Source: a bacterium (lineage in GTDB: Bacteria > Bacteroidota > Ignavibacteria > UBA10030). From it: DNA of 64,000 nucleotides. The stretch spans positions 64,001 to 128,000 of the forward strand of contig JAZDJN010000091.1 in the NCBI GenBank assembly GCA_043803945.1, given 5' to 3'. Under the pieces are notes generated by a model. It was not told the DNA's origin. It did not search any database and worked only from the letters and a program-made list of their open reading frames with translations. Shown here in pieces: positions 27,604 through 56,993 of this stretch (the stretch's first letter is position 1; each line of letters starts with the position of its first letter). The position numbers and the translations under genes were made by a program.

Positions 27604-29487
27604 TCATCTGACGAGGGTCATCTTCTTTGAAGCATGATTTTCCCCTCCACTGATGCGATAGAAATAGACGCCGCTCGGCATACTCCGCCCATCGTCATTG
27701 GTTGCATCCCAAACGATGCTATGAATCCCGGCATTCATGTGTTTTCCCACAAAAAGCGAACGCACCTTAATCCCGATCATATTGTAAATCTCAAACGTAA
27801 CCGGAGCTTCCTTTGGCAATGAGAAATAGATTGTGGTTGTCGGATTGAAAGGATTCGGGAAATTCTGTCCAAGAGAAAATTCTGTTGGTATCAATTCTTC
27901 CTTCTCTGCAACTTCCGTTAAGGTCATATTCCATTCGGTCGAGTCTTTTGCGCCTTTCACATCGGTGAATACACAGGTGACCTTTCGCGGCATGTTATGG
28001 GCACCGGTAAAGGTGTCAGTATAGGTGCTGTCAAGTCCACTCTTTTTCGTGACACCATCAACTTTCCATGTATAGTTAACGGTATCCTTATCGAGGTCCT
28101 GAACACTGACCGTAAATTTTATTGGGACATTTACGGAGATCGTACCGGCATTCTGAGGAGTCCGAAGCAGCAGTGTAGGCTTCCGGTTTACATCAGTAAC
28201 CGTGATGGAAACGACTGTGCTATCGCTCAATCCACCGGAGTCGGTGACCTTAAAAGAAACAGAATAGCTGCCGGCTTGTGTAAATGATGGTGTCCATGAA
28301 AAGGCTCCGTTTGACTGATTCAATGCAGCACCAGAGGGCAGATTGGAAGAGGTGTAGACAAGAAGGTCTGCATCCGCATCTGATGCAGTAACGTTGAAGG
28401 ATAAAGCCTGACCTTCAGCAACACTCTTGGCTGTTATCGGAGTAATGACCGGTTTCTGGTTGACATTTGTCACGGTGATCGTAACAACAATTGAGTCGCT
28501 CAGCCCTCCTGTATCCGTTGCTTTAAAAATGATCGGATAGGCACCTGCCTGTGTGAACGAAGGAGTCCACGCAAATGCACCTGTGGTTTGATTAAGTGAT
28601 GATCCCTGAGGAGAGTTTGGTGAACTGTAAGTGAGTGCGTCGCCGTCGGGATCAGTCGCACTCAATGTAAAAACCAGTAACTGTCCCTCCGAAGTGGATT
28701 GAGGGGAAACGGTATTCATTGCCGGTTTCTGGTTGACATTGCTGACCGTTATTGAAAAGGCAAGACTGTCACTGAGTCCAAGGGCATCGGTGGCTCTTAT
28801 CATCACCGAGTATGAACCCGATTGAGAAAGCGTAGGAATCCAGGTAAATACTCCTGTTGTTGCATTAATCGAAGCTCCCATCGGAGGATTAGAAAGACTG
28901 AAGGTAATTGCATCAGCATCCGGATCGGTTGCGGTGACGGTGAATGAAAGCTGTTTCCCTTCATCGATTGTTTTCGCCGGTATGGGATTGAGTACTGGTT
29001 TGCGATCGACGATAATAGAGCCGCTCTTGATCGAGTAGGTCAATCCTCCTCGTAAATTGAATGAGGTAAAGGTAAGATTGGTTTTTCCCTTTGCGCGCAA
29101 CTCCGCTTTTACATAAATGAGCCTTCCACTTCCTGTAAGATCTGTTGTACCGGCAGCTGCGACTGAAAGAGTATCCGGAATTTTATCCCAGTTCGTGATG
29201 ATTAATCCACCAGCTGCATCAATAACTTCGGCAAATGTCCCAGGATATTCGGTTCCGATAAGTTTCGCGATCGTTGAATCATACGCTATCCGGAAGTCAA
29301 ATGATTTCACCGCTTTGCCAGTCAAATCACCGATATATATCGGGATCTTCATGATCGTCCCAGGCGCCCCAATAGTGTCGGGGAGAGTGACCGGAATTGC
29401 CTGTCCATAGGTGAATGCCGTGATAACTGTTGTCAGGAGTATTGTCGTAATCAGCCGTTTCATAATTTTTCCTATTAAATTTTCCAT
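27604..29487 (-). CDS. mini-scaffoldin B: cohesin + 3 cadherin/He_PIG Ig domains + Ig + T9SS CTD
   Basis: Signal peptide ..TYG-Q; cohesin-like IPIYIGDLTGKAVKSFDFRIAYD..LSVAAAG..LTGSGRL; three repeats KP...EG..L.F...ATD.D.D.L....P.GA......G.F.WTP...Q.G.Y; CTD LGQNFPNPFNPTT...KKMTLVR. Confidence 0.85.
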   Translation of the reverse strand: MENLIGKIMKRLITTILLTTVITAFTYGQAIPVTLPDTIGAPGTIMKIPIYIGDLTGKAVKSFDFRIAYDSTIAKLIGTEYPGTFAEVIDAAGGLIITNWDKIPDTLSVAAAGTTDLTGSGRLIYVKAELRAKGKTNLTFTSFNLRGGLTYSIKSGSIIVDRKPVLNPIPAKTIDEGKQLSFTVTATDPDADAITFSLSNPPMGASINATTGVFTWIPTLSQSGSYSVMIRATDALGLSDSLAFSITVSNVNQKPAMNTVSPQSTSEGQLLVFTLSATDPDGDALTYSSPNSPQGSSLNQTTGAFAWTPSFTQAGAYPIIFKATDTGGLSDSIVVTITVTNVNQKPVITPITAKSVAEGQALSFNVTASDADADLLVYTSSNLPSGAALNQSNGAFSWTPSFTQAGSYSVSFKVTDSGGLSDSTVVSITVTDVNRKPTLLLRTPQNAGTISVNVPIKFTVSVQDLDKDTVNYTWKVDGVTKKSGLDSTYTDTFTGAHNMPRKVTCVFTDVKGAKDSTEWNMTLTEVAEKEELIPTEFSLGQNFPNPFNPTTTIYFSLPKEAPVTFEIYNMIGIKVRSLFVGKHMNAGIHSIVWDATNDDGRSMPSGVYFYRISGGENHASKKMTLVR

Positions 29488-29533
29488 GATAACCCCCTTG
29501 TTCCTATTTGCTTTCGTAATTGCTCAGTTAGTT

Positions 29534-29640
29534 TGCCACAAAGCCACTATGACACAAAGTCTTTTTAACGACATCGGAATAGTATCGAGAAAAAAAATAA
29601 ATATCTTACTTTTACTTTGTGACTTTGTGCCTTGGTAGTT
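29534..29640. repeat. REP-like inverted pair (CCACAAAG..CACAAAG / CTTTGTG..CTTTGTG)
   Basis: GCCACAAAGCCACTATGACACAAAG...CTTTGTGACTTTGTGCCTTGGTAG. Confidence 0.55.
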
Positions 29641-29773
29641 TAGTGTTTGCCTACTTTCTAATATATAAAATTCTTCTTTCGATTTCTACTCACAACACCT
29701 GATTAAGTATATCGATATCTACCGCATCCTATTGTATCCTTTGTCACACACATTCCATACGGTTATTCCTGGA

Positions 29774-32700
29774 TCACCGGATAAGTAGCATTCTTTTCGA
29801 TGCACGATAACCAGATGTTTCAAGGCAATAAAGATAGATACCTGAGGAGGCTGCTTCTCCCGTCTCCGTTCTTCCATCCCATTGAACTCGTTGTTCACCG
29901 GCCTCGAGTTCACTGTTTTTCAATGTCTTAATCAACCTGCCGGAAATATCAAAAATCTGCAATTTTACGTGCCCTGAGACCGGCAATTGAAATTGAATCA
30001 TCGTAGAGGGATTGAATGGATTAGGGTAATTCTGCATTAGCGCAAAATGGTGGTGAATCGCCACCGCTTCATACTGAATCTTTTCGATCACACGCTCATT
30101 CAGCATAGCTTCGAATTCCAATTCTAAGGATACGGTTGGATTCAACCGTTCTAGCGTAAATTGAGCGATACTACCCTTTTCGAGCGGTGATGCACCCGCC
30201 ATTACGATTGTAATCGTTTCTCCCTTTATTTCATGGCACAACTGCCAATCTTTAGGAAGAGTTCCGGCTATTGTTCGAATCCCTACTATTGTACTATCCC
30301 AGTTCCCCTTCATTTGAACAGAATAAATTTTTTCACCATCTGTTTGGAGTATGAGCGGTATCTCTATCAAGCTCGTCTGATTGATCCTCCGTTGAACTCC
30401 CCACCCGAGAGAACCCGTTCGTTCACCCTGCTTCATTAGTCGGGGGTGTTCAGGTGCTGGCTGAACCGGAAAAACCGAAATCACTCCGGCAACGTACTGA
30501 AGAATTAACGAAGCATCGTAAGCGGTAATTGTCCCATCCTTTGAAACATCAGCCAGAAAGAGTGTCAGTGGACCGGACAGCAGTTGAATACCGGCTACAT
30601 GTAAGAGGATAAGCGAGGCATCGTATGCGGTGATCACATCATCTCCGCTCACATCCCCGGGACGACGGTTCTGGATAATCGTCACAGATGCCGTTGTGCT
30701 ATCAGATGCACTGCCATCGCTGATTCGAACCGTAATTGTATAACGACCACCTGCCTGCGATAGGAGCGGGATCCAACGAATCCGCCCCTCATTGGTCAAT
30801 GAACACCCCGGCGGAGCATTCAGCAGATTGAAGATGAGCGGATCGCCATCAGCATCGAATGCCAGGTAGGTGAACAGCAGGGAGTCTTGTCCCGCACGCA
30901 AGGTCGTATCACGCAAGATCCTCGCAAATCTCGGTGTGCGATTAACATTTTGTACGCTGATCGCCGAGGAATTCGTAATCGTAAACTGACCATCAGAAGC
31001 GGTGACAATAATCGAATAGGAACCGGCCTGTAAAAATGTTGGTACCCATCGAAGGATTCCATTCTTTTCGTCGATGGAGACACCTGTGGGTGGATTCAGG
31101 AGTGCGTAGAGAATCTCCTCGCCATAATCACGAGGATCAGTACTGAACTTGTAGATGAGAGTATCATTTTCTCTGATTACCGTGTCTCTCAGTGCCTGCA
31201 GAAAGAGAGGCGGCCGTGTTGGATAACCAATAGTAAACCGCGTTCCCTCTGGAATGAGATTAGCCAATGATCCTGTCGATCGAACTATGAGCAACGTATC
31301 GCCTGTACTTGAAACCTCCAGTGCATTCCTTCCATAGCTTAATCCGGATCCCTGCAATTGCCAGGGAGTCGCTAACAGATTACTCTCCTGCCGTCGTATA
31401 AGACGCAGATCAACGATGCGGCTAAATGCCTGATCAGATTTTATTGTCTGAACTTCGATGTCACATTGCTGAGATTGGGACAGTGTCGGCAATGTCGATT
31501 GCAACGACCAGTAGCGTAGTCCATAACTCCCTATTCGGATACCATTGCCCGCATCAAATGGCAATCCAACTGTCCCTTCTGCAGAACCAACAACCGCCTG
31601 AACCTCAATTGTTGGATTGGCTGTTGCCGGATACGCAGCAGTAAACGTCATAATGAATGGTTGATACCCTGTAACACTGCCAACAGGAAATTCATATTTT
31701 CCATTTGCCCACTGGAGTGGATTCCCCGCACCCACGCTGATGCTCTGACGAACTCTGCCGAGAATATGGGAAACATTTGCACCAACGATCCCGGTGCGAT
31801 CGAATCCCTGCTGCGAAGCCTGTTGGGAAAGTGTAATGCTGGTAGTATCGGCCCGGAGTATTCCGTTGATGAAGTAGAGGAGTGAACCGGGATCCAGTTT
31901 CAGATCGCCGCCGCTCAGGCGAAATCCCAGTCGATTGTTTAATCGAAGATGAATCGCCGATGATCCACCCGGTAACACCAAACCCTGTGAGGGAACTTGA
32001 ATAAGTTGTTCCTGGTTGCCCTGCAGGTCGATCGTGGTAGCAGAACCGGTTGGGTTGATGAAACTTCCTGCCTCGATCGTTAACGTTCCCTGAATGTGTA
32101 ACGGTTGAGGAGCGAATGACCCCGGCACTCCAAGTGCTATGCCGCCTCCCGTACAATTCAAACGCAAATCGCGTACGGTGCATTCCCGATGGAGCGTTAC
32201 CCTTGTCGCGTTTCCCAGTGTATCGTTTACTACCTCGAGACTGAGGATTGTTTTACCAGGACCTGATTGAAGCTCTTTGTCCGACGATGTCAGCGAGGTA
32301 CCAGAGCAATACCGAAGATAATAGCGTGAGACAGTCGGAGCATCCTGTGCTCCAAACGATGATTCGAATCTTCCCCGTCCAATGCTGAGCCGGGAGTTCT
32401 CGGCAAGCGTAAGATTATTACTGCCTTCATCCAATTCTCCATCCATCAGGTACAGAGTTCCCACGATAACAACATCTTTATCGAGTGTCACATTGTCCCG
32501 ATCCGCCGATTGATTCGGATTGGAAATAACCAGATCTTTAAGGATGGAGAACGAAGCCGGCAATTCCCGTTCTGTGATGAGGTTGCCGTTGGCAGAATCA
32601 ACGAGATAGAGAAGATTTATTCTGCCTTCAAAAAGTGGAGCGGTTGAGATCTTAGCATCGGTTCGCCGTCTGATGACCGTCGCATTATCGGCAAGCAGAA

Positions 32701-35700
32701 GCGTACCGGCGGGAACTGCCAGTATTCCTCGCGAGAGATCCAGAGAACGTGTAATGTTAATTTTTTGATTCAGGGCTTCCGACTTCACTCCGGCGGGATT
32801 ATCTATACGGAGCTGTGAAATTCGAAAATCCGGTCCGGGATCGATGTACTGTTGCGCGTGGCCGGCCAGAAGGAATATTCCTGTCGTCGAAGAGATGCTC
32901 CCGCCATTCCGATTAAATGCCCGTAAACCGACTCCACTCCCCACACCATCCAGGGAGAGGTTGTTCGCTCCAAGTGAGAATTCTCCTCCGCTCTGTGTGA
33001 AAATATCAGTCACATGAAGTGTATGGATATCTGCGGTAAGCGATTCCAACGTAAAAATGCTTTGCGGATTAATAGGATCGAGAAGCAATTCTTCGATGCT
33101 ATAATCGTTGGCTACTTCAATCCCGGTACGAAATCCAGTAAGGATAAGCCTGCCCCCTCCCACTCCTGGAGTATTATTGGAAACGATGGCGATCTTATTT
33201 CCTGCCAAAGCTCCCTTGTCAAGCAGAGCGATGGCCGAACCGGACATTGTCAGATTAAAAGCATTCAACGAGAGAGATGGAATTCCAATGGAATCCTTTG
33301 ATCCGATGGTCAATCTGCCAATGATCCGGGCATCTGAACTCAATCGTGTCGGTGCCAGGATCGTAAGATTCAGCAGCGCAGTTTCCACTACATTACTGAG
33401 TTGAATGGAGGTTTGAGGTTGTGCTATTACCAGTGAACCACCTGCAGAAAGAAAACCCTGTGTATTTGATCCTTGCGCAAATCCTCCTGCACCAGCGATA
33501 ACCAGATCGTAGCTGGTGAAGTTCAACAAACCAGAAGAAAATTCTACACCGCCCATTGCATAAACAGCACTGGCCAGGGTTAGCAGTGCACCGCCAATAT
33601 TGAGCGATCCGAAAATCGTTTGTTCGCTTGCCAGCACCACCCCGCTCGCATCCCGTGAACCCATGCGGAGTACTGTGATACTGGAGGGTACTGTTCTGAA
33701 AGATCCCATGAAGCCCTGAATGTACTTGATGGAACAAATATTTTGCGAAGCGATGATAATGTTGCCCAGAAGCGCAGCATCCCGGGTGAACTCGCTGCCA
33801 AGTATATTGACCTGCGCTCCACTCACGAGGAAATAATCGCCAACATCGGCCGTAAACAACATTCCACGAATTTGATGAGTAACGTCGGAAGCGCGCAACT
33901 CAACCACGTTGCCATTGAGGCCGTTGGAGGCAAACCGGACTGCAGCCAGCGGACCGATCGAGAGTGCTCCTTGAAATACCAATCCGCTTGCCGGAAGATC
34001 CAGATAGGCAAGCGAACCCGTTGCGAGGTTTCCATCATTGTCCCGAGTATCGCTGTTGACATTCAACGTAAGCGTTCTTACAAGGCCTGGTTCGGAAAGG
34101 AATTCGCTGCCGATGGCCGCAGCCGCACTCAGTGAACCCAGATACTCAATATCGAATGACTGTCGACCAGTATTGAACAATCCGCCCGACAGGACGATAC
34201 CATTCGAGAGAGCAAGATTTCGTGTTATACGCGCCTGGGATCCCGCTGGTTCGATGATACTGGAAGGGACATTCAAAGAACCGGTGAACAAATTCAGCAC
34301 CCCGCTAAAACGAGTATGACCCAACACGGTGACACTGTTCGTCGTTCCAACATCAATCGTCAAATTCGAACAGAGGCCATTACTTGAACTCTCCAGCACG
34401 GCATTGGCAATTGGTTGAAATCCCGGAAGCAGTGAAGCTCCTCCGAAGATTATTCCCCCGGCCGATTCTGAGGAATATTGACCGTTAATAATAGCTTTCA
34501 CGCCATTGGCGTTGAGGACGATTGAGCTACCCTTGAGATGAAGTTGTGAACCGGTGCTTAGTGAAAACTGGCCGGCAACCTGAAGCGAGTGTTGTATCGT
34601 CACTGCTGAAGCGGTATTGGCTATTGCGAGATTAGTAAGCTGGAGATTTGTACCACCGTCCATAGTTTGCGGAACGGATCCCTGCAGCAACACCACGGAA
34701 GCGAGCGCCATCTGAATTGTTCCATCCAACCGGAGAAAGTTACCATCGATTCGGAGTGTACTTCCCGATGATGTTCCCAAAAGCGTCATCCCACCGGATT
34801 GTGTGTAATGAAGGGTCTTCAGTGTTACTCCATCAGGAACTCTGAGGAGACCATTCATTATATATATTGAATCAGACACTGCGCACGGAACCTCCAATAC
34901 AAGCTCTCCAGCTTGCATTGATAATCGCCCTATGTTGCAGTTCTCGGTATTACAAATTGTTACTCCGCCGTCTGAATTGAGAAAGAGGTTTGAGATTGTT
35001 CCACCATCGAGTGTCATACTCCCATCACGATGTGCAAATATAAGTTTTCCTGATGTAGCCTGGATCGTGCTTCCTTTTGTCCGATGATTGAATATGGCAG
35101 GGCTCGTCTGATTGCCCGAACCGTCATTCAAGAATGGAGCATCCCGAACTGGCAATACCGTAAGATCCCAGGCTCCCAGGTTGATAATCTTGCCGGGAGC
35201 ATTTGTTATCGGGAGCGAAACTGTTGTCGAACCATTCAAGGAGATTACTCCACCGGCTTCTCCGGAATTCAATAATTTGCCCCGAAGAGTACCAGACACC
35301 GATATTGAACCGCTGGAAGTATTAACAATGTGCACCGTGAACGATCTGAAACCAGAATTGGACCCTCTCGTTACTGGAGCAGATATTCCTTTCGAGAAAA
35401 CCAGTGAACCTGCAAAGATGTTTTCCATCAGTACAGAGTAATACGCATCGCCAGACGGCGCCGTGATGGATGCTGCGCTTAACTGGACGGTAGAACTAAA
35501 ATTGATCGACCCGGAAGAGGTATTCCGAACAAGCGATACCCCTTGACCGCTGCCGAATGACAATTCACTGAGAGGTTTGCCAACCGCATCGGGCGAAGCA
35601 AGCCAGACCACAGGCCCGGCAAAGCGGAGTGAACCTATTCCTGTGTTCTCTATTGTAGAGATCGATGCATCACCGGCCGTTGCCAATGCTCCGGCAATGA

Positions 35701-36718: not shown

Positions 36719-36771
36719 TGCAATCTCATCGATCGAAAACGTTTAATCATTTTTTGTATTATTCAGCTTTT

Positions 36772-36920
36772 TTAGTAATCCTAGTACTTTCACTTATCTT
36801 TCTCCCCCTTTACCAAAGGGGGCCGGCCCGCTCCGCCGACGCGGGAGCGAGGCTGGAGGGGGATTCTACAGCAAGCTGCAGATAAATCTCATTGAGAACT
36901 CCATTGACAAATCTCCCTTC
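36772..36920. repeat. ~140-bp dispersed repeat, copy 2, with a 30-bp palindromic insert (36823-36852)
   Basis: Aligns to 4653-4775; extra CCGGCCCGCTCCGCCGACGCGGGAGCGAGG is absent from copy 1. Confidence 0.85.
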
Positions 36921-37040
36921 GAGGTTGTCCAAAATGTAGGACGAGTTGCCAACTCGTCCACGTTGAGATAGTGAAAACATTTCATATTGCGCAATCTTGA
37001 TCTATGACATACACCCATTAAGTACTTTTTGGACAACCTC
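36921..37040. mobile_element. 120-bp MITE with perfect 14-bp TIRs, containing a GTAG-type REP
   Basis: GAGGTTGTCCAAAA (36921-36934) / TTTTGGACAACCTC (37027-37040); internal GTAGGACGAGTT-GCC-AACTCGTCC. Confidence 0.75.
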
Positions 37041-37199
37041 AATATGGTCCGCGTAGACGAACAACAATGCATGAACCATTCCGTTCTCCATTTATCCAGT
37101 ATATAAACGAATGGAAAATACAATACCCTTATAGTGTGCTAATTATATTAGCATTCACGTTTCTGTTATAATTACAGCTTTAAAATATCGGTTAAAACA

Positions 37200-37234
37200 A
37201 CAAAGGCAGACACCCAGCCGGGGTCTGCCTTTGT
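37200..37234 (-). terminator. intrinsic terminator after scaffoldin A
   Basis: ACAAAGGCAGAC-loop-GTCTGCCTTTGT, followed by TGTTTT on the minus strand. Confidence 0.7.
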
Positions 37235-37260
37235 GAACAACATAAACATTCCAACACCGA

Positions 37261-38964: not shown

Positions 38965-39011
38965 CGTGTCTCCTCTGTGTGTTTATGGTCTAATTAGATA
39001 AGAGTTATTAC

Positions 39012-39035
39012 CCCGAACCGCCGAAGCGGTTCGGG
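39012..39035 (-). other. extra-stable intercistronic stem-loop (cUUCGg) with no U-tract
   Basis: mRNA CCCGAACCGC-UUCG-GCGGUUCGGG between giant gene A and scaffoldin A. Confidence 0.7.
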
Positions 39036-39054
39036 ATGATTTTCTAACTGCACC

Positions 39055-42000
39055 TTACTTGATTAACATCATCTTGTTCGATGCAACAAATGACCCGGCT
39101 TGAACACGATAGAGGTAGAGGCCAGATGCGACTGATTGACCAGCATCATTGCGACCATCCCACACTATGGAGTAGTAACCGGCTTTTTGTTCCTGGGCGA
39201 CCACTGACCGAATCTTCTGACCCTGCATATTATAGATCACCAGGTTCACGGCTGCATCCTGTGCAATCCGATACTTAATGGTGGTTGTCGGGTTGAAGGG
39301 ATTCGGATAGTTCTGATCGAGACCGAACTCGGACGGAACGAGACTGATCTCGGTTGCATCCATGGTCTGACCAATGCCATCATTCAAGAAGCCTTCACCG
39401 CTCACTGTGAGACGGTTCTCTTTGTTCTTCAGCTTGAAGCTCACAACTGCTGCTTCGCCAGTCACAGGGGTTAGACCTGCTGCTGCAACGGTCAATGTAC
39501 CATCTTCGACCTTGTACAGAAGTGTCCAGTCCTGAGGAAGTTTAGATGCAACTTCATTGACTGTGGCGATTGCCGCGTTGAACTTCATTGTGAATTGCAT
39601 CGATGTGATGTTTCGTGCATCATCGGAAACCTTTACGCCCATGGTAACTGCATCCGCTTTCGCAACCGGGTTCTTCCATTCGATGGAACCGACTGAAGCT
39701 TCGGATTTACCAAGTGCAGCTGGGGCAAATACTACGGGATAGCCAGCAACCTTCTGGAGAATCAAGGATGCGTCGTATGCGTTCACAGTGGTGTTACCAG
39801 AGACATCACCAGCCCAGAGAGCTTCCGGATCGGTAATGGTGATAAGGCCGACTGCGTGTTGCAATGCAAGCGATGCATCTTCTGCGAGTACTGCATTGTC
39901 GCCAGAAATGTCACCTTTAATGCGTGCACGGTTGACGGTAACATTGAAGGTTTGTTCCACTGCTGGAGCAACACCATCTGTTACGCTAACCTTCACGGCA
40001 TACGTCTTTGTGGCATCGAGATACTCTGGCTGCCATGTCAACGCTGTGCCTGTCAAAGCCGGCAGGTTGGTTGCTGTGGCAGGAGCAGGAGTAACGCTAT
40101 CAAATGCATAGGTTAATGCATCGGTATCGAGATCGGAAGCTGCGAGAGTAACATTCAGCCTCTCTGTCCACTTAATGGTCTGTGCAGTGACTGCGGTAAA
40201 CACTGGTGCACGGTTCACGTTATTCACGGTAACCACGACTGTGTCATAAGCGGTCAATGGACCATAGGTATCAGTTGCACTAACAACAAAGTTCGTAGTG
40301 ACTGATGGTGTAGCTTTCGTTGCAAAAGTATATGGGATAGCCCATGTGATCTTTCCAGCGGCCAGAGCAGAGGCACCTTCCGGAGCAAGCACTTTGGCCA
40401 TTGTCACAGCATCGCCACCGAGATCATAATCAACAGCAACCCAGGTCAACTCAACCGTTTCGCCTTCATTCTTTGGCACATCGGCAGGCATCGTTGTGAA
40501 AGTCGGTGCCTTGTTGATTTGGCTATAGGTAAAGAGTGAACCTTGAGTTGTGATACCACCAGTTGCATCGATAGCTTTCACAACCGGCCATGTCAGGTTA
40601 ACAGTAGAGTTATCATACAGCCGTGTACCAGTATTATAATTTTTCTGTTCAAGCCACTGGTTATTGTAATTACCAGAGTCTCGGCGGATCAATCGGACAT
40701 TCTGGATTGCATCTGCGACATATTCTGCATATCCCTCAGCCTGTGCTTCGATATCAAACACATACGAAGGAGCCAGAGGAATATCAGATTTCACGGACCA
40801 GAAGAATCCCGGATAGTTTGTAAGATTCAAATCAGAACCATCTTGTTTCTTCGAGAGAATCTTGAATCCATTTTCACCACCTGGTCGTGAATTCACATGA
40901 CTCACCGTAATGGTAGCCGCACTCTGAGGAGTGTTCTTAAAGAATACGCTCAACGGTCGATAGTAACCAACCGATGCGGGCATCGTTCCAACTGGGAACG
41001 TTACAACACTGCGGTCAATCGAAGTACCAGTGCTATTATTGACATATTTACGAACGTTTCCAACAAAGTGACTGAAATCACCAGTTGCAACCGAACGACT
41101 GAAACCTTGAGTCGGTTTGTTAGTGAGGGGATGGTTACCCTGGATCAACGTCCATACAAAGTCAACAGTAGTGACAATTACACCTTTTGTAAAGATAACG
41201 TTACTGCCAGTACCCATAGTGACGTTACCGCCTCCAAGAGTGACCTTCTTATCGACATCTGCTGTTGCGGCACTGTTGACCTGAACATCGACAGGCGGTG
41301 TCTCGCCTGCACCTACGTCAATATAGTCACCGTCAGCATTCCCATCCACACCGCTTGGTAACGTTAATCCTGCTGCGGGAACCGTTATCGTCTGAAAGGT
41401 AGTTCCTTGGAAGACGACTTTAGGAACGCTCGTTCCAGCCGTAGTCCATGCAACTGTGATGAAATTACCAGCGGTTACTGCTAAATTGCCAGTAATGGTC
41501 AGATTGCGTGTCAGACCTCCGACAGTATTCAACTGTATTCCACCACCGGTAGCGTTAATGGTAACATTCGTTACTGTAGCGCTTGCATGTGGCGTAAGGA
41601 CGGTATTTGTAGTTTTCACCGTAAGACCAAGCAAAGTCGCGGCAGTTTGAAGCTGCTCAGCAGTACTTGTAACGGCAGCACCACCGCTATACACCAAGTA
41701 GTACGATGTCACAGTTGGTGAGTCAGGGCCGGAACCTTCAAAATTACCAGTTCCGATTTCTAACGTACCACCCGCAGCAATCGTAATTGCTTTGGTTGTC
41801 TCATCGAGCAAACCAGCCTGTAGATATAACGTACCGCTTACTGTTACATCTTTGCCCATATCAACCTGATCGTTGACACCACCACCGACAGTTCGGTTGA
41901 CAGTAAAGTTAAATACCGCAGCCGAAAGTTCGTTACCGGTAGCAATGGCAGCAGCCTCAGCACCACTATATTCAACATTGGTATTGGTACCGAAGACTAC

Positions 42001-45000
42001 TGTATTGGTCACTGTTGAGGTGGTAAGAGTACGAATAACCGTTCCACCATCGCCAATTTTCAACTTGCTGGCATCAATCAATAACGCACCGGCTCCACTC
42101 AGTTTCAGCGTACCAGAGACGATCAACAGGTTATCTGTCACTTCGCTGTTTTGTACGCCACCAACTGTGGTTGCAATAGTAAGGTTCGGGATCGTCAGAT
42201 CAACACCTGGTTTAAAGAATTGAGCTGCGCCACCAGAGAAAATCACCTCACCAGTAGCAGATGCAGTAATTGTACCGACGGTTCTCACGAATGCATCAGT
42301 ACCAGCACCATTGGCCAATGAGAGATCATTTGCACCAAGGGCTAATGTACCTTTTGTCATCGTGAAGACACCCGCAGCAACATTACCAACCGTAATAGTT
42401 CGATCGGAGGGTGTGCTTGATCGATTTACGGTGACAGTTCCGTCTGTATTGAGTGTCAGATTAGGAAGCGTCGGATTGCCGTTGCCGTCGAAAGTCACTG
42501 TGGCTCCTGTGACAATGAGTGCGCCGGCTGCACCGAGGGTGTACGAACCTGCTGTGAATGTATAGTTTGTTCCAGAGAGAGTAATATTCGTCGCTCCGAG
42601 TGTCACGGCTGCATTAGTATGTTTCAGAACACCGGACACTGTGAAGCTTGCATTGATCGTGATACCATTACCACCTGTTCCGGCAAACTCGAGATTTGCG
42701 ACGGAGAATGCTGCACCAGGGGTAAAATCAATTGCAGCCGCTGTTTCGTTAAAGATCAGATATCCTGCACCTGTAAATGTTCCGGCACCGGTTCTGAGAT
42801 AATCCGGCGAGGCACCACTGCCATTTTGCTGATAGTTAAATCCGCCGTTCTCGATATTCCCGGCAACCTGTGATGTCGAGCCAGCAATAATCACGTTGCT
42901 GCCGAGGATTAACTTACCGGCAGTCAGCGTCACATTACCAGCAACCGTTGTAAGAGCGCCACCGCGTGTGAAAGTCAGTGTACCGTTGGATACTGTGAGG
43001 TTACCGCCATCAACTGATGTTGATGAACCCTTAATCGTTACCGATGCATTTGGTCCTAATGTCGCATTACCGACAACCAGGTTTCCAGTAAGGGTTGAAC
43101 TTGTGCCATTCATCGTGAAGGTTGCCGTGGCACCTGTTTTTGTACTAACACCCTGTAAGGTGAGATTACCACTTACGACCTTCAGGTCTGTTGAGGTGAA
43201 AGAGTACCCATTATCAGCCGGTTCAAAGGAGAAACTATTGAGCTGAGATTGTGTGTTCGAAGAGGTTGAGGTTGTACCGACTAATGTACATCCATTTCCT
43301 GTTTCTATTAGGATACCCGCTGCAGTGATTTGTCCAATAACTGTGTGCGAACGATTGTCGCCTGTCAAGGTAATCGGATTTGCAGCGTTACCGCCGCTGA
43401 TTAATCCACCCCGACCGACATAGAGAGAACCAGTGATATTCAGGTTCTGTGCCGGGAGGTTGAATTCAGTAATATTCGTTGCATTATCTGTAAGCTTCAG
43501 ATTCCCCTTGATTGTAACCGTTGCGCTGTGCGAAAGAATCAGCTTATTGGCTGCTGATGTCGTCGTAATCGTAAGATTACGAACGTTGGCCGCTGTAAAT
43601 TCAGCTCCGCCTAACGCACTGGCAACCGTCGCAGTGACGTCGCCAGTAATGGCGCCGTAGTACTCAAGATCGTAATCAACCGGGGAATTTGTATTGAATC
43701 CACCTGCTGTCACAATAACACCATTTGTACTTCCAGCACCTGTAGCGAGATTTCGGATGACACTGGCTGTTGTTCCAGTTGGGCCGAAGCTACCACCGGC
43801 ATTGTTGACTTCCAAATCACCGGTAACCATGCGGAGGATACCATTGAATTTCACATTGTTTGCAGCATTCATCTGTACTTTATTCGCAGTACCGACATCA
43901 ATAGTGATATAAGAGTATGTTCCTGTACCAGCGATTGTGGTGCCCGTGACAGCTGCGCCGCCAACCACTGTTGTGGAACCACCAAAGATCACTCCACCAC
44001 CACCAATGGCAGTATAGGAACCATTGTTGATGATGGCAGCACCTACTGCATTGAGGATAATATTCAATGTGCTCATATCGAGGTTTGTGCTTCCTGAAAT
44101 CGTTACTGTTCCAGAGGCACGAATCGATTGACCAACGGTAATGGTTCCAGCCGTATTGGTAAAGGTAAGATTACCAAGTTGAAGCAATGGACCGCCATTG
44201 ACCTGCTGGGTTGTAGTACCGGTGAATGTTACGAAAGAAGCTGCACCGGCGGTAAAGGTACCGGCAGTTCTATTGAAATCATTCTTAACATTCAGAATTG
44301 AAGCAACATTGTTTGCAAGAGTAATTATTCCACCAGACATCGTGAATCCACCGGTGGTCAAGGTAAAGTTACCGACTGCCAGGGTACCACCAGAAAGCGT
44401 CGTGACACCCGCGCCAGAAACAGTCGTGTTAACACTGATGTTTGCTGTACCAGCGCTGACGGATAAGCTGCTCAGGGTTGTCGCATTTGTTCCAAAGGTT
44501 AACGTTCCTGATCCACTCATGGTCACATTGGATAATGTACCGCCATCAAATGAAGCGGCGCCAGAAGCCGATACGACAATACCGGCTGGGCTTGTTGCGG
44601 TAACGGTTCCACCATTGGTCGCATGAGCAACAGAACCCGAAAGGGTTAGCACATTACCACCAAGGGCAACTGTACCGGCGTTGGTAAACGCACCGGCAAC
44701 AGAAAGCGCTGCGGTTACGTTCGTTGTTGCACCACCAACGTTTGTCAACGTACCACGGATTGTGCCACCGGCAATATTCAATGTGCCACCGGAAGCACCG
44801 TTGTTCACATTGAGAATAACATAAGTAATACCGGCTCCACCAGAGGCTGCCGAAAGATTTCCAAGCGTGAGGACACCGGCTGCTCCGTTATTGGCTGTAG
44901 CAGTTGCGTGCCAGGCAGCAGTTGCTTGTGAGTTTGCCAATGATACTGAAGAAGCAAACACAATAGAACCGGTCGATTGGTTATCGACGATATAGGTATT

Positions 45001-45969
45001 TGCACCTGCTGCAAACACATTGGCACCTGTAAAGGTACCGGCAGTCCAAGTCACTGCGCCATTCATTTGTACTGTACCAGTACTTGTATTCTCGATGCTG
45101 CCGAGGTTACCATCGGCTGTACCATCGGTGATACTCAATCCGAGGGTGTTATCGAATTTCAATGTACCAGTACCACTGTTGGTAATGTCATTCGCTCCAA
45201 CGCTAACTGCGGCACTGAAGGTTGCATTACCGCTGGTGACAACGATACCGCCAGTTGCCGTGATGGCGTAAGGTAGTGTCACTGTTGTTCCTGCAGTCTT
45301 TGCTACTGTAATGACTCCCGTTCCATAGGATGCATAGTTTGCCTCGGGGCCACCGGTGACATCGCTGCCGCCGTTATAGGTAAGGCTGAGGTTTGTGCCC
45401 TTCTGCGGAGCCTGGTTTGTAAAGGCCGATGAACCATTCATCACAATACCAATACCGGTTGCTAAACGGAAGAAGGAGGCAGTTCCGATACTCATACTGG
45501 AATTGCGCGTGCCGCTTCCCAGGGTCAGCGTGTTGCTAAGGGTAAAATATTCTGTATTGTTGGTTGTGATGATATTCAGAGTGCCACCAGAAATATCATA
45601 GGTAAATGTACCAGCACTCATTAAAACATTGTTGTTGGAGTTCAACGATCGTAGTTCGATCGTGAGTGATCCGCTGGCGGTGAGAGCGGCATACGTTGCC
45701 GTCGTGATTGCAACGTTACCACCTGCGTTATCACCACCATTGTAGGTACCAGCAAAGATAACAACATTGCCATTATTTGCGACGAGGGAGAGTCCCTTGT
45801 TAATGGTCGCAACAGGTCCAGATCCTGCTGGATTGTTGGTTGCATTGGCACCAGTGTAGGTGTCAGATCCGTTCGTCACGTCGACATACACAGTCGCGAG
45901 TTGACTGAACGCGGTCATCGTTGCCACCAACATCAGTGCAACAACCAATAAGAATGTTTTTGTATTCAT
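39055..45969 (-). CDS. giant secreted protein A: T/G/A/V/N/S-rich beta-helix-like body + 2 Ig + dockerin + cohesin-like domain + T9SS CTD (candidate S-layer/major surface protein)
   Basis: GGAGG RBS; signal peptide ..AFS-Q; cap YVD...GSD..TG..GPVATINKGL..GTY; dockerin GDISGDNAVLAEDASLAL...GDVSGNTTVNAYDASLILQ (~39740-39915); cohesin-like ITSMQFTMKFN..LTVAAAG; CTD LDQNYPNPFNPTT...NKMMLIK. Confidence 0.87.
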   Translation of the reverse strand: MNTKTFLLVVALMLVATMTAFSQLATVYVDVTNGSDTYTGANATNNPAGSGPVATINKGLSLVANNGNVVIFAGTYNGGDNAGGNVAITTATYAALTASGSLTIELRSLNSNNNVLMSAGTFTYDISGGTLNIITTNNTEYFTLSNTLTLGSGTRNSSMSIGTASFFRLATGIGIVMNGSSAFTNQAPQKGTNLSLTYNGGSDVTGGPEANYASYGTGVITVAKTAGTTVTLPYAITATGGIVVTSGNATFSAAVSVGANDITNSGTGTLKFDNTLGLSITDGTADGNLGSIENTSTGTVQMNGAVTWTAGTFTGANVFAAGANTYIVDNQSTGSIVFASSVSLANSQATAAWHATATANNGAAGVLTLGNLSAASGGAGITYVILNVNNGASGGTLNIAGGTIRGTLTNVGGATTNVTAALSVAGAFTNAGTVALGGNVLTLSGSVAHATNGGTVTATSPAGIVVSASGAASFDGGTLSNVTMSGSGTLTFGTNATTLSSLSVSAGTANISVNTTVSGAGVTTLSGGTLAVGNFTLTTGGFTMSGGIITLANNVASILNVKNDFNRTAGTFTAGAASFVTFTGTTTQQVNGGPLLQLGNLTFTNTAGTITVGQSIRASGTVTISGSTNLDMSTLNIILNAVGAAIINNGSYTAIGGGGVIFGGSTTVVGGAAVTGTTIAGTGTYSYITIDVGTANKVQMNAANNVKFNGILRMVTGDLEVNNAGGSFGPTGTTASVIRNLATGAGSTNGVIVTAGGFNTNSPVDYDLEYYGAITGDVTATVASALGGAEFTAANVRNLTITTTSAANKLILSHSATVTIKGNLKLTDNATNITEFNLPAQNLNITGSLYVGRGGLISGGNAANPITLTGDNRSHTVIGQITAAGILIETGNGCTLVGTTSTSSNTQSQLNSFSFEPADNGYSFTSTDLKVVSGNLTLQGVSTKTGATATFTMNGTSSTLTGNLVVGNATLGPNASVTIKGSSTSVDGGNLTVSNGTLTFTRGGALTTVAGNVTLTAGKLILGSNVIIAGSTSQVAGNIENGGFNYQQNGSGASPDYLRTGAGTFTGAGYLIFNETAAAIDFTPGAAFSVANLEFAGTGGNGITINASFTVSGVLKHTNAAVTLGATNITLSGTNYTFTAGSYTLGAAGALIVTGATVTFDGNGNPTLPNLTLNTDGTVTVNRSSTPSDRTITVGNVAAGVFTMTKGTLALGANDLSLANGAGTDAFVRTVGTITASATGEVIFSGGAAQFFKPGVDLTIPNLTIATTVGGVQNSEVTDNLLIVSGTLKLSGAGALLIDASKLKIGDGGTVIRTLTTSTVTNTVVFGTNTNVEYSGAEAAAIATGNELSAAVFNFTVNRTVGGGVNDQVDMGKDVTVSGTLYLQAGLLDETTKAITIAAGGTLEIGTGNFEGSGPDSPTVTSYYLVYSGGAAVTSTAEQLQTAATLLGLTVKTTNTVLTPHASATVTNVTINATGGGIQLNTVGGLTRNLTITGNLAVTAGNFITVAWTTAGTSVPKVVFQGTTFQTITVPAAGLTLPSGVDGNADGDYIDVGAGETPPVDVQVNSAATADVDKKVTLGGGNVTMGTGSNVIFTKGVIVTTVDFVWTLIQGNHPLTNKPTQGFSRSVATGDFSHFVGNVRKYVNNSTGTSIDRSVVTFPVGTMPASVGYYRPLSVFFKNTPQSAATITVSHVNSRPGGENGFKILSKKQDGSDLNLTNYPGFFWSVKSDIPLAPSYVFDIEAQAEGYAEYVADAIQNVRLIRRDSGNYNNQWLEQKNYNTGTRLYDNSTVNLTWPVVKAIDATGGITTQGSLFTYSQINKAPTFTTMPADVPKNEGETVELTWVAVDYDLGGDAVTMAKVLAPEGASALAAGKITWAIPYTFATKATPSVTTNFVVSATDTYGPLTAYDTVVVTVNNVNRAPVFTAVTAQTIKWTERLNVTLAASDLDTDALTYAFDSVTPAPATATNLPALTGTALTWQPEYLDATKTYAVKVSVTDGVAPAVEQTFNVTVNRARIKGDISGDNAVLAEDASLALQHAVGLITITDPEALWAGDVSGNTTVNAYDASLILQKVAGYPVVFAPAALGKSEASVGSIEWKNPVAKADAVTMGVKVSDDARNITSMQFTMKFNAAIATVNEVASKLPQDWTLLYKVEDGTLTVAAAGLTPVTGEAAVVSFKLKNKENRLTVSGEGFLNDGIGQTMDATEISLVPSEFGLDQNYPNPFNPTTTIKYRIAQDAAVNLVIYNMQGQKIRSVVAQEQKAGYYSIVWDGRNDAGQSVASGLYLYRVQAGSFVASNKMMLIK

Positions 45970-46591: not shown

Positions 46592-46664
46592 GAGCCTGAG
46601 GGTTAAATTATTCAAATAAATCGCACTGTGTGAGCGGGGTCAAATGAGCGAAAATCAAGATAAT

Positions 46665-46745: not shown

Positions 46746-46790
46746 AATTATGAAACTTTCAACCTGAAACTTACACCCTTCCCTCCTTTC

Positions 46791-56980: not shown

Positions 56981-56993
56981 AAAACCAAATGCA

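What the first reader, a model, noticed from the sequence alone, without database searches (positions are those of the whole stretch)
27604..45969. T9SS-secreted cohesin-dockerin system with no enzymes: candidate self-assembling surface coat
Seen in sequence: four consecutive minus-strand genes, all with a signal peptide and a T9SS-type CTD. The two ~2300-aa proteins each end in Ig-Ig-dockerin-cohesin-like-CTD. The two small proteins contain only cohesin(s), cadherin-like Ig spacers and a CTD. I recognise no glycoside hydrolase or other catalytic domain in any of them. Established: cohesin-dockerin pairs assemble clostridial cellulosomes, and non-cellulosomal modules exist but are mostly of unknown function. 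Inference: a subunit with both a dockerin and a cohesin could polymerise head to tail, and the one- and two-cohesin mini-scaffoldins could cap or cross-link the chains. That would give a Ca2+-dependent lattice or fibril on a T9SS-bearing cell, i.e. cellulosome chemistry used for envelope architecture.
Basis: partly seen in the sequence, partly recalled or inferred. Interest (0 to 1): 0.9.

Follow-up and report, generated by a model that had tools for sequence, protein, structure and literature searches.

The report
Enzyme-free cohesin-dockerin surface fibre genes
Four neighbouring genes of an Ignavibacteria-type bacterium encode two giant rod-like surface proteins and two small partner proteins that carry the "plug and socket" modules known from cellulose-degrading complexes but no enzymes, so they most likely build or stick the cell surface rather than digest anything.

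Summary
Four consecutive minus-strand ORFs sit at exactly the stated coordinates, and all four carry a type A T9SS sorting domain. The two giants (2,304 and 2,314 aa) end in Ig-Ig-dockerin-cohesin-like-CTD. The small proteins carry two and one N-terminal cohesins on Ig stalks. The post-dockerin domain is a true but divergent cohesin, by profile and by fold. The giants' first 1,200 residues model as a confident beta-solenoid, with no significant PDB match and no conserved catalytic-type residue cluster.

What is new here: the dockerin-cohesin-CTD tail is widespread. At least 101 of 144 top cluster representatives carry it. None of the 66 carriers I scanned has a hydrolase, lyase or peptidase family. 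Of 104 carriers, 44 also have extra cohesins. The pairing of a giant with a cohesin protein recurs in two other MAG loci.

Binding itself is untested, because the one docking job gave no answer. Whether the dockerin binds the neighbour's cohesins, its own cohesin within the same chain, or another copy's cohesin stays open.

T9SS-linked cohesin-dockerin systems (Cloacimonadota, 2021) and a neighbouring-gene pair in Chlorobiota (2026 preprint) are already proposed in print. So this is a new variant of a known kind, and the "lattice coat" remains a hypothesis.

The parts
39055..45969 (-). Giant A (P0004, 2304 aa): signal peptide, beta-solenoid body, conserved unknown domain, two Ig domains, dockerin, cohesin-like domain, T9SS CTD
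   Evidence: ORF, translation. 30% identical over its full length to giant B. 53 relatives found, the best at 58% identity.
41110..45903 (-). Giant A beta-solenoid body (about residues 23-1620)
   Evidence: AlphaFold2 model of residues 1-1200: pLDDT 86.7, about 115 short strands. Residues 1201-1620 were not modelled. 0 of 44 PDB matches reach E<=0.001; the best weak ones are EtpA, Ag43, SepA and PL6 lyases. No Pfam or NCBIfam family. Conserved polar columns are mostly Asn and Tyr.
40525..41109 (-). Conserved domain of unknown family (about residues 1621-1815), rich in conserved Arg, Trp and Tyr
   Evidence: Invariant P1659, G1661, P1672, F1677, W1724, R1759, R1763 and W1772 in 20 of 20 giants. 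The Atlas search gave only unnamed clusters. Also present in relatives that lack the dockerin and cohesin, such as P0037 and P0040.
39742..39918 (-). Giant A dockerin (residues 2018-2076)
   Evidence: Pfam Dockerin_1 at 17.6-21.4 bits, below the 22.9 cut-off. Own HMM E 2e-25. Three helices at pLDDT 89-96. D2020, D2031, D2055 and D2066 are invariant.
39340..39690 (-). Giant A cohesin-like domain (residues 2094-2210)
   Evidence: Pfam Cohesin 23.9 bits against a cut-off of 24.1. Profile hits to the P0003 cohesins. Nine-strand model that matches cohesin structures. W2148 and N2196 are invariant in 20 giants.
39058..39309 (-). Giant A T9SS type A C-terminal sorting domain
   Evidence: TIGR04183 at 36.4 bits, cut-off 23.
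37261..38964 (-). Two-cohesin small protein (P0003, 567 aa): cohesin 1 (38509-38889), cohesin 2 (38122-38505), Big_9 Ig, PKD-like domain, CTD (37264-37518)
   Evidence: Pfam Cohesin 50.6 bits in two stretches, and Big_9. TIGR04183 29.8 bits. 27 relatives.
29774..36718 (-). Giant B (P0002, 2314 aa): same layout as giant A. Ig domains 30677-31195, dockerin 30485-30661, cohesin-like domain 30062-30415, CTD 29777-30028
   Evidence: He_PIG, Big_9 and Dockerin_1 (31.4 bits). TIGR04183 35.8 bits. Own HMMs: dockerin 2e-23, cohesin-like 6e-33. Its closest relatives, P0017 and P0018, form a separate paralog lineage.
27604..29487 (-). One-cohesin small protein (P0001, 627 aa): cohesin (29005-29403), three He_PIG Ig domains, PKD-like domain, CTD (27607-27861)
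   Evidence: Pfam Cohesin 25.3 bits, He_PIG 150 bits in three stretches. TIGR04183 31.0 bits. C-terminal 297 aa are 45% identical to P0003.
46791..52184 (-). PorU-like protein (P0005, 1797 aa) directly upstream: Peptidase_C25, ILEI, CARDB and CTD. Possible dedicated cargo-processing or attachment enzyme (inferred)
   Evidence: Peptidase_C25 at 195 bits. NCBIfam PorU2 N-terminal model 364 bits (cut-off 450) and PorU 309 bits (cut-off 420), both below their cut-offs.

Best explanation
This is a non-enzymatic surface-fibre system exported by the type IX secretion system of an Ignavibacteriales-type bacterium.

The parts. Two old paralogs of about 2,300 aa are long beta-solenoid rods. Each carries a conserved domain of unknown family, two Ig domains and a tail of dockerin, cohesin and CTD. 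Each giant gene is followed by a small protein that presents two or one cohesins at the tip of an Ig stalk and ends in its own CTD.

Shown: the domain make-up, the cohesin and dockerin homology and fold, the intact calcium-loop residues, the lack of any catalytic signature, the recurrence of the gene pairing, and the wide spread of the tail on non-catalytic bodies.

Inferred: all four proteins cross the outer membrane through the T9SS. Their CTDs are removed and the proteins are fixed to a surface glycan by a PorU-type sortase, possibly the PorU-like gene next door. The calcium-loaded dockerin of each giant then plugs into a cohesin of another molecule. The most likely socket is on the small protein encoded beside it, and the giant's own tail cohesin offers one more socket. 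The result would be a cross-linked, adhesive fibre layer on the cell surface, not a degradative complex.
For: - Domain calls.
- Calcium-loop Asp at positions 1 and 12 of both dockerin repeats: invariant in 20 of 20 giants, and 87-100% conserved in 111 diverse tails.
- Beta-solenoid body at pLDDT 86.7. Its best, though non-significant, PDB neighbours are beta-helical adhesins: EtpA, Ag43, SepA, EspC.
- No family hit in residues 1-1840. Between residues 30 and 1620 only six charged or His columns reach 80% conservation, and they are scattered.
- Gene pairing: two giant + cohesin-protein pairs in the window. L002 reads giant, two-cohesin protein, one-cohesin protein. L012 has a Beta_helix-dockerin-cohesin-CTD protein followed by a three-cohesin CTD protein. 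L065 has a dockerin protein next to a cohesin-CTD protein.
- Both giant lineages exist in other genomes.
- Tail distribution: 101 of 144 top representatives carry dockerin followed by the cohesin-like domain, and 87 of those have the CTD motif.
- 0 of 66 scanned carriers have a hydrolase, lyase or peptidase family at E<=1e-12.
- 44 of 104 carriers have extra cohesins, including three-cohesin mini-scaffoldins with the tail. That only makes sense if cohesins and dockerins of different molecules meet.
- Precedents for surface cohesin-dockerin pairs in the same superphylum: PMC8542988 and bioRxiv 10.64898/2026.03.19.712371 (passages read).
Against: - No binding is shown.
- Every component has its own CTD, so docking is not needed to stay on the cell.
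- Geometry is awkward. The giant's dockerin lies within about 290 residues of its own anchor point, while the small proteins' cohesins sit at the far end of their stalks.
- The tail models as one compact unit. pTM is 0.68 even though about 100 of 387 residues are low-confidence.
- Weak co-variation links the dockerin to its own cohesin (S2057, N2063 and P2078 with D2197). Both this and the compact model fit a contact within one chain.
- 2 of the 4 non-window tail loci (L001, L003) have no cohesin protein of 250 aa or more nearby.
- The P0004 dockerin and both tail cohesins fall below Pfam's curated cut-offs.
- The PorU-like neighbour is not seen beside the giant in L002.
- Synteny rests on very few loci.
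Confidence: 0.45

Rival explanations
1. Clasp within one chain. The dockerin binds the cohesin that follows it in the same polypeptide. Together they form a rigid, calcium-stabilised base just above the CTD anchor. The tail would then be a structural foot for many T9SS surface proteins and would not link molecules. The small cohesin proteins would bind something else, or would bind the giants only after exchange.
For: - The tail is inherited as a fixed unit on unrelated bodies, with a constant 90-100 residue CTD after it.
- Compact model, pTM 0.68, with a flexible linker of about 20 residues that is long enough to fold back (the linker argument is inference).
- The second dockerin repeat and a patch of the tail cohesin (P2145, W2148, A2164, G2165, N2196) are highly conserved together in 111 tails.
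- Dockerin-cohesin column pairs at z>=3.5: 7 of 7,076, against 2 of 5,002 for dockerin-CTD.
- L001 and L003 carry the tail without a neighbouring cohesin protein.
Against: - The co-variation counts are small and not significant, and they cannot tell a contact within a chain from one between chains.
- I had no model coordinates or PAE, so the contact itself was never seen.
- This reading gives no role to the conserved neighbouring cohesin proteins, nor to the 44 of 104 carriers with extra cohesins.
Confidence: 0.25
2. Head-to-tail polymer or lattice. The dockerin of one giant binds the tail cohesin of the next. The one- and two-cohesin proteins cap, prime or cross-link the chains. Together they give a calcium-dependent coat.
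For: - Each giant has one dockerin and one cohesin.
- The dockerin repeats are near-symmetric in both giants (sequence).
- Other carriers have Coh-Doc-Coh-CTD tails, repeated Doc-Coh units (CDCDC in 3, DCDCT in 2) and three-cohesin proteins with the tail. These are the parts a chaining system would need.
Against: - All subunits are individually anchored by CTDs.
- The tail sits at the membrane-proximal end, so chains would run along the surface at the base of rods tens of nanometres long.
- The short linker allows self-binding within a chain, which would compete.
- The tail occurs on many small, unrelated proteins that are unlikely to be coat subunits.
- There is no evidence of any lattice.
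Confidence: 0.15
3. Degradative, cellulosome-like complex. The beta-solenoid bodies are unrecognised polysaccharide lyases or hydrolases that are displayed on cohesin scaffoldins.
For: - Many right-handed beta-helix proteins are lyases or hydrolases. PL6 alginate lyases, a rhamnogalacturonan lyase, a pectin methylesterase and phage tailspikes appear among the weak fold matches.
- The N-terminal motif of the giants resembles the cap of such proteins (recalled, not tested).
- A CTD-anchored degradative cohesin system has been proposed for Cloacimonadota.
Against: - 0 of 44 fold matches are significant, and adhesins rank above the enzymes.
- No Pfam or NCBIfam catalytic family.
- No cluster of conserved acidic or basic residues in 1,600 residues across 20 giants.
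- The P0004 body has only 7.3% Asp+Glu+Lys+Arg.
- No CBM anywhere in the cluster.
- 0 of 66 other tail carriers have a catalytic family at E<=1e-12.
Confidence: 0.05

Closest known systems
Clostridial cellulosome (type I cohesin-dockerin, e.g. Acetivibrio thermocellus CipA with its enzymes)
   Same: Same two module families: a dockerin with two calcium-loop repeats and a nine-strand cohesin. Small multi-cohesin 'scaffoldin' proteins are anchored to the cell surface.
   Different: No enzyme and no CBM here. The host is Gram-negative and exports through the T9SS, with CTD anchoring instead of SLH or sortase. The dockerin-bearing subunit is a 2,300-aa beta-solenoid that also carries its own cohesin and its own anchor. 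Binding is untested.
Proposed CTD-anchored cellulosome-like complex of 'Ca. Stygibacter' (Cloacimonadota), PMC8542988 (passages read)
   Same: Same superphylum. A cohesin scaffoldin with a T9SS-type CTD plus dockerin-bearing secreted proteins, including a non-enzymatic glycine-rich dockerin protein proposed to form a capsule. Inferred from MAGs only.
   Different: There the dockerins sit mainly on enzymes (GH18, GH57, S8, C25), and the scaffoldin is one 3,755-aa protein with CBMs. Here there are no enzymes or CBMs, and the dockerin-cohesin-CTD tail is not described there.
Cag_2037/Cag_2038 of Chlorobium chlorochromatii, bioRxiv 10.64898/2026.03.19.712371 (passages read)
   Same: Neighbouring genes in a sister phylum. 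One has an N-terminal cohesin and the other a C-terminal dockerin, both on long Ig-repeat proteins. They are proposed to pair on the cell surface and make cell-cell contact (AlphaFold 3 inference by the authors).
   Different: Export there is assigned to a type I system with an RTX end. One partner carries an epimerase/lyase-like domain. There is no CTD, no dockerin-cohesin tandem and no beta-solenoid giant.
Non-cellulosomal cohesin-dockerin pairs of Clostridium perfringens glycoside hydrolases (PDB 2w1n, 2vo8)
   Same: These are the best structural matches to the tail cohesin: rank 1, and rank 48 with target TM 0.64. They are cohesins used outside cellulosomes.
   Different: Those modules join secreted enzymes of a Gram-positive pathogen. 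That they form toxin or enzyme complexes is recalled, not checked here.
Beta-helical adhesins (EtpA, antigen 43, SepA and EspC passenger domains)
   Same: Long, non-catalytic or mostly non-catalytic right-handed beta-solenoids on the cell surface. They are the top, though non-significant, fold neighbours of the body.
   Different: Exported by type V or two-partner systems. There is no sequence relation. The fold match is not significant (best E 0.82).
Type A CTD cargo of the T9SS (Porphyromonas gingivalis gingipains and their PorU/PorV/PorZ attachment complex)
   Same: All four proteins and the PorU-like neighbour match the type A sorting domain above its cut-off. The tail model also matches PorU chain 6za2.
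   Different: Cleavage and anchoring to anionic LPS are known from Bacteroidota (recalled) and are not tested for this lineage. The PorU-like neighbour scores below both NCBIfam PorU cut-offs.

Membership tests
Cohesin (Pfam PF00963), small proteins P0001 and P0003 | Score at or above the curated Pfam cut-off of 24.1 bits | tested here: met
   25.3 bits (P0001, one domain) and 50.6 bits (P0003, two domains).
Cohesin (Pfam PF00963), post-dockerin domain of the giants | Score at or above the curated Pfam cut-off of 24.1 bits | tested here: not met
   P0004 segment 23.9 bits; P0002 segment no hit. 8 of 21 aligned tails reach E<=0.01, the best at 1e-09.
Cohesin, post-dockerin domain of the giants | Homology to verified cohesins at profile level, and a cohesin-type nine-strand beta-sandwich fold | tested here: met
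   The domain profile hits P0003 cohesin 1 (i-E 1e-11), cohesin 2 (6.7e-09), the L012 small protein (8e-09) and the L002 small protein (2.4e-08). Model pLDDT is 86-96 over the domain. Foldseek: 2w1n rank 1, 3l8q rank 7, 2vo8 with target TM 0.64.
Dockerin_1 (Pfam PF00404) | Score at or above the curated cut-off of 22.9 bits | tested here: inconclusive
   P0002 31.4-35.1 bits: met. P0004 17.6-21.4 bits: not met. 17 of 21 aligned tails match at E<=0.01.
Dockerin | Two repeated calcium-binding loops with Asp/Asn at the coordinating positions, each followed by a helix | tested here: met
   D2020, D2031, D2055 and D2066 are invariant in 20 of 20 giants. Three helices at pLDDT 89-96. PDB sequence matches are to dockerins, e.g. 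4uyq_B at E 1.2e-05. The assignment of coordinating positions is recalled.
Cohesin-dockerin system | Calcium-dependent binding between the dockerin and a cohesin | not testable with these tools
   Needs a binding experiment, or a complex model with coordinates that can be inspected.
T9SS type A cargo (TIGR04183) | C-terminal sorting domain at or above the curated cut-off of 23 bits, plus an N-terminal signal peptide | tested here: met
   31.0, 35.8, 29.8 and 36.4 bits. Signal peptides were judged by eye only. Whether the genome has a full T9SS cannot be seen in this window.
Cellulosome / degradative cohesin-dockerin complex | Dockerins borne by catalytic subunits; a scaffoldin with a substrate-binding module | tested here: not met
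   No catalytic or CBM family in the four proteins. No conserved catalytic-type cluster. No significant fold match to an enzyme.
Right-handed beta-helix (Pfam Beta_helix PF13229, pectate-lyase-like fold) | Family match, or a significant structural match to a solved right-handed beta-helix | tested here: inconclusive
   No Pfam match in the window's giants. The model is a confident all-beta solenoid. 0 of 44 PDB matches reach E<=0.001, though all the top ones are beta-solenoids. The analogous L012 protein does match Beta_helix, at 177.8 bits.
PorU sortase (NCBIfam NF033707 / NF052324), the upstream neighbour | Score at or above the curated cut-offs (420 and 450 bits) | tested here: not met
   308.8 and 364.3 bits. 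Peptidase_C25 is met at 195 bits against a cut-off of 23.

The most novel reading that the evidence does not exclude
The dockerin-cohesin-CTD tail is a self-complementary coupling module. It lets T9SS cargo of many kinds plug into one another and into small multi-cohesin primers. Ignavibacteria and their relatives would then build a calcium-dependent protein mesh or fibril layer on the outer membrane from cellulosome parts, with no enzymes involved. This would be a new type of surface architecture, spread across the FCB superphylum.
Probability: 0.2. Interest if true: 0.85.

Novelty: new variant of a known kind. Interest (0 to 1): 0.55.

Why it matters
Cohesin-dockerin pairs are among the strongest known protein-protein links, and they are understood almost only as enzyme organisers in Gram-positive cellulose degraders. 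Here the same modules sit on enzyme-free, T9SS-sorted surface proteins. The dockerin-cohesin-CTD tail recurs in at least a hundred diverse protein clusters, none of which showed a catalytic family among those scanned.

If the modules bind as expected, this is a general way for FCB-group bacteria to assemble or cross-link surface fibres and adhesins. That would give the many 'non-cellulosomal' cohesins and dockerins a testable function. It would also supply new orthogonal binding pairs for surface display. The system is small enough (five cohesins, two dockerins) to be settled by a simple binding matrix.

Tried and rejected
- Docking: P0004 dockerin against the two P0003 cohesins, both given as alignments, with two Ca2+. 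Verdict 'no answer': runs 0.29, 0.32, 0.30 against a mark of 0.32, and controls were not folded. It counts neither for nor against binding.
- Locus scan: the search for related loci seeded on the generic CTD motif. Most of the 77 loci are therefore unrelated CTD cargo and only 4 (L001, L002, L003, L012) hold the tail.
- Vpr fibril lead: PDB 8jmw ranked 2, and 8x39/8x3a 'Serine protease' were the best dockerin sequence matches. The latter are plain tandem dockerins (alignment). The former is a Bacillus peptidase fibril (title and abstract seen in the listing) that matched as a generic beta-sandwich array. Dropped.
- Atlas search of the conserved domain, residues 1600-1820: only unnamed clusters at 0.93.
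- Intergenic regions: the alignment shows no shared element.
- Promoter and terminator scan: 38 promoter-like sites against 28.0 +/- 4.3 expected, and 19 terminator-like sites against 16.6 +/- 4.6. Not informative beyond one strong hairpin.
- Co-variation between the dockerin and its own cohesin: suggestive but too weak to decide. 7 of 7,076 pairs against 2 of 5,002 in the control.
- Literature: Peer et al. 2009 could not be read (not held). The search for 'PorU2' returned only unrelated papers. The M. roseus genome paper says only that its cellulases lack dockerins.
- I had no access to model coordinates or PAE, so whether the dockerin touches its own cohesin in the model could not be seen.

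Full report
**Observation.** The window holds four consecutive minus-strand ORFs at exactly the stated coordinates. They are P0001 (27604-29487, 627 aa), P0002 (29774-36718, 2,314 aa), P0003 (37261-38964, 567 aa) and P0004 (39055-45969, 2,304 aa).

All four match the T9SS type A sorting domain TIGR04183 above its 23-bit cut-off, at 31.0, 35.8, 29.8 and 36.4 bits. All four start with a charged then hydrophobic N-terminus that ends in a small-x-small/Gln motif. I read these as signal peptides by eye only.

- P0003 has two Pfam cohesins (50.6 bits) and P0001 has one (25.3 bits; cut-off 24.1). Both continue with He_PIG/Big_9 Ig domains and a PKD-like domain.
- P0002 has He_PIG, Big_9 and Dockerin_1 (31.4 bits; cut-off 22.9).
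- The P0004 dockerin stays under the cut-off at 17.6-21.4 bits.
- The giants are 30% identical over their full length. The small proteins are 45% identical over their C-terminal 297 residues.

**The post-dockerin domain is a cohesin.** On its own, the P0004 segment scores 23.9 bits against Pfam Cohesin, just under the cut-off. The P0002 segment gives nothing, but the two segments are homologous (E 5e-17).

- In an alignment of 21 tails (A2), 8 of 21 members hit Cohesin, 17 of 21 hit Dockerin_1 and 21 of 21 hit Por_Secre_tail at E<=0.01.
- An HMM of the domain finds the Pfam-verified cohesins of P0003 (i-E 1e-11 and 6.7e-09), of the L012 small protein (8e-09), of the L002 small protein (2.4e-08) and, weakly, of P0001 (9e-04).
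- The AlphaFold2 model of P0004 residues 1918-2304 has mean pLDDT 81.2 and pTM 0.68. It shows three dockerin helices, a nine-strand sandwich at pLDDT 86-96, and the CTD.
- Its PDB matches include the cohesin-FN3 construct 2w1n (rank 1, E 3.3e-10), the type II cohesin dyad 3l8q (rank 7) and the lone cohesin 2vo8 (target TM 0.64, rmsd 4.0 Å over 131 columns).
- The Asp residues at positions 1 and 12 of both dockerin calcium loops are invariant in 20 of 20 giants.

**The body.** Pfam and NCBIfam find nothing in residues 1-1840 of either giant.

- The model of P0004 residues 1-1200 is confident (pLDDT 86.7). It consists of about 115 short strands and only three short helices, one of them the signal peptide. 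That is a long beta-solenoid.
- None of its 44 PDB matches reaches E<=0.001. The best are beta-helical adhesins (EtpA at E 0.82, antigen 43, SepA, EspC), followed by PL6 lyases, a pectin methylesterase and phage tailspikes.
- Across 20 giants, the columns with polar residues conserved at 80% or more between residues 30 and 1620 are mostly Asn and Tyr. Only D36, E209, E790, H875, R1313 and E1347 are charged or His, and they are scattered. The P0004 body is 52% Gly+Ala+Thr+Asn and 7.3% Asp+Glu+Lys+Arg.
- I take this as good evidence against a lyase or hydrolase site, though not as proof.
- Residues about 1621-1815 form a separately conserved domain (invariant W1724, R1759, R1763, W1772 and others). 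It has no family assignment.

**Context.** The cluster sits in a run of minus-strand genes.

- Upstream lies a surface-polysaccharide cluster: a WecB/TagA/CpsF transferase, a Wzx-like flippase, one GT2 and two GT4 glycosyltransferases.
- Next comes a 1,797-aa PorU-like protein with Peptidase_C25, ILEI, CARDB and a CTD. It scores below both NCBIfam PorU cut-offs.
- Downstream are a GAF-SpoIIE phosphatase, an ECF sigma factor and an anti-sigma factor.
- The closest named SecA relatives, at 78-80% identity, are from Ignavibacteriales and Ignavibacteria MAGs.

**Relatives.** P0004 has 53 relatives at E<=0.001 among 7,998 scored candidates. The best is 58% identical. The few that are named come from Ignavibacteria, Ignavibacteriales and Melioribacteraceae MAGs. 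P0017 and P0018 are closer to P0002, and P0006-P0015 are closer to P0004, so the two giants are old paralogs. P0003 has 27 relatives, including one named 'cohesin domain-containing protein' from Rhodothermales.

The one genome scan seeded on the CTD motif, so only 4 of its 77 loci hold the tail.

- L002 (Melioribacter MAG) reads giant, two-cohesin protein, one-cohesin protein. That is the window's parts list.
- L012 (Ignavibacteriae MAG) has a 1,960-aa Pfam Beta_helix protein with the same tail, followed by a three-cohesin CTD protein.
- L001 (propeller body) and L003 carry the tail with no cohesin protein of 250 aa or more nearby.
- L065 has a dockerin protein beside a cohesin-CTD protein.
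- Contig lengths recur between searches: 19,928 for giant P0007 and two-cohesin P0068; 187,715, 114,173 and 35,905 for SecA relatives and giants or cohesin proteins. This hints at further synteny but does not prove it.

**The tail is a widespread module.** I searched a profile of dockerin plus tail cohesin (six window and locus sequences, A6) against 1.84 billion cluster representatives. It gives 31,369 hits at E<=0.001, many of which match through the dockerin part alone (as 34 of the 144 top representatives do). It gives 4,583 hits at 1e-10 and 231 at 1e-30.

- Of the 144 new proteins among the best 150, 101 have a dockerin followed within 70 residues by the cohesin-like domain. Of those, 87 have the CTD motif. 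The tail after the cohesin clusters at 90-100 residues, and protein lengths run from 307 to 3,267 aa. A further 34 are multi-dockerin proteins, of which one has the CTD motif.
- I scanned the 66 carriers of 1,700 aa or less; the longer ones were not scanned. At E<=1e-12, 0 of 66 have a glycoside hydrolase, lyase or peptidase family, and 28 of 66 have no family at all.
- The rest carry SBBP, FG-GAP, PQQ-type propeller, NHL, PKD, He_PIG, Big_9, CHRD, Laminin_G_3, Fib_succ_major, CarboxypepD_reg or Beta_helix modules.
- At E<=1e-05 the summary listed 25 of 55 families, none of them catalytic. The other 30 single-member families were not shown.
- With a slightly wider definition, there are 104 carriers. 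Their architectures are DCT 55, CDCT 20, CCDCT 6, CDC 6, DC 5, CCCDCT 4, CDCDC 3, DCDCT 2 and three others (C = cohesin-type, D = dockerin, T = CTD motif).
- Of those 104, 44 have extra cohesins upstream of the tail dockerin. The extra cohesin often ends four to six residues before the dockerin. Five carriers (P0232, P0242, P0256, P0276, P0293) look like three-cohesin mini-scaffoldins that also bear the tail.

**Mechanism.** What is shown is a parts list: plugs, sockets, anchors and long enzyme-free rods, inherited together.

- That the plugs fit the sockets is inferred from family membership and intact calcium loops.
- Which socket is used stays open.
- The recurring gene pairing and the many carriers with surplus cohesins favour contacts between molecules.
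- The compact tail model, the joint conservation of the second dockerin repeat and a patch of the tail cohesin (P2145, W2148, A2164, G2165, N2196), and weak co-variation favour a contact of the dockerin with its own type of cohesin. That contact could be within one chain or between copies. The co-variation figures are S2057-D2197 at z 5.5, and 7 of 7,076 dockerin-cohesin pairs at z>=3.5 against 2 of 5,002 dockerin-CTD pairs.

**Comparison with what is known.** Cohesins and dockerins outside cellulosomes are long known (Peer et al. 2009, cited by the papers I read; I could not read it myself).

- A CTD-anchored cohesin scaffoldin with dockerin-bearing enzymes, plus a dockerin-bearing capsule-like protein, was inferred for Cloacimonadota in 2021 (PMC8542988, passages).
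- A 2026 preprint infers a cohesin-dockerin pair between neighbouring Ig-repeat giants of a green sulfur bacterium, making cell-cell contact (bioRxiv 10.64898/2026.03.19.712371, passages).
- My searches were: cohesin + dockerin + 'type IX secretion' (10 papers); + Ignavibacteria (2); dockerin + Melioribacter (2); and dockerin/cohesin/T9SS/adhesin (80 papers with at least three terms, 12 listed).
- I found no description of the dockerin-cohesin-CTD tail or of these giants. Supplements were not examined.

**Verdict.** This is a new variant of a known kind. Its interest is moderate to good (0.55), because the tail is widespread, enzyme-free and directly testable.

Noticed in passing
window 46791-52184 (-) and 52181-59241 (-): A 1,797-aa PorU-like protein (Peptidase_C25, ILEI, CARDB, CTD) scores below both NCBIfam PorU/PorU2 cut-offs. 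It sits between a surface-polysaccharide gene cluster (WecB/TagA transferase, Wzx-like flippase, GT2, two GT4) and the four cargo genes. Together these could be a dedicated glycan-anchoring module for this cargo. The adjacency is not seen in L002.
   Followed up: partly
window 40525-41109 (-), P0004 residues about 1621-1815; the equivalent region in P0002: A strongly conserved domain of unknown family with invariant Arg, Trp and Tyr residues. It is also present in relatives that lack the dockerin and cohesin (e.g. P0037, P0040, P0041, P0046, P0047). It may be a binding domain. The Atlas search returned only unnamed clusters.
   Followed up: partly
window 39012-39035: A perfect 10-bp GC-rich hairpin (8 G-C pairs) lies in the 90-base gap between the giant P0004 and the two-cohesin gene P0003. 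By eye, similar hairpins follow P0003 and P0001 in the alignment. They could act as attenuators or terminators that set the ratio of giant to small protein.
   Followed up: no
window about 46660-46790 (minus strand), within the 821-base gap upstream of P0004: A CT-rich, low-complexity stretch of about 130 bases on the coding strand, directly after the PorU-like gene. Two 11-of-12 promoter-like sites lie at 46591-46563 and 46384-46356.
   Followed up: no
search hits, analysed (e.g. P0280, P0288, P0299, P0243): Many large proteins end in cohesin-dockerin-cohesin-CTD, with only four to six residues between the first cohesin and the dockerin. The dockerin is sandwiched between two cohesins. No explanation yet.
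   Followed up: partly
search hits (e.g. P0206, P0209, P0219, P0275): 34 of the 144 top representatives carry 3 to 10 tandem dockerins by my own HMM, and all but one lack the CTD motif. What they plug into is unknown.
   Followed up: no
L030 7286-27498 (Gemmatimonadota MAG): Six consecutive genes encode dockerin-bearing proteins, four of them with a CTD motif, and none has the cohesin-like domain after the dockerin. This is a different T9SS-dockerin arrangement.
   Followed up: no
P0050-P0052 (C-termini): Proteins of about 1,400 aa with LRR repeats carry the modules in the reverse order: cohesin, then dockerin, then CTD.
   Followed up: no
window 24233-27279 (-): A GAF-SpoIIE (PP2C-type) phosphatase, an ECF sigma factor, a zf-HC2 anti-sigma factor and a 162-aa protein of unknown family lie directly downstream on the same strand. 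They may regulate the cluster.
   Followed up: no
window 61873-63951 (-) and 59450-61681 (-): A further T9SS cargo protein with BNR/sortilin-type repeats and a CTD, and a 743-aa HEAT-repeat protein, lie upstream of the polysaccharide cluster.
   Followed up: no
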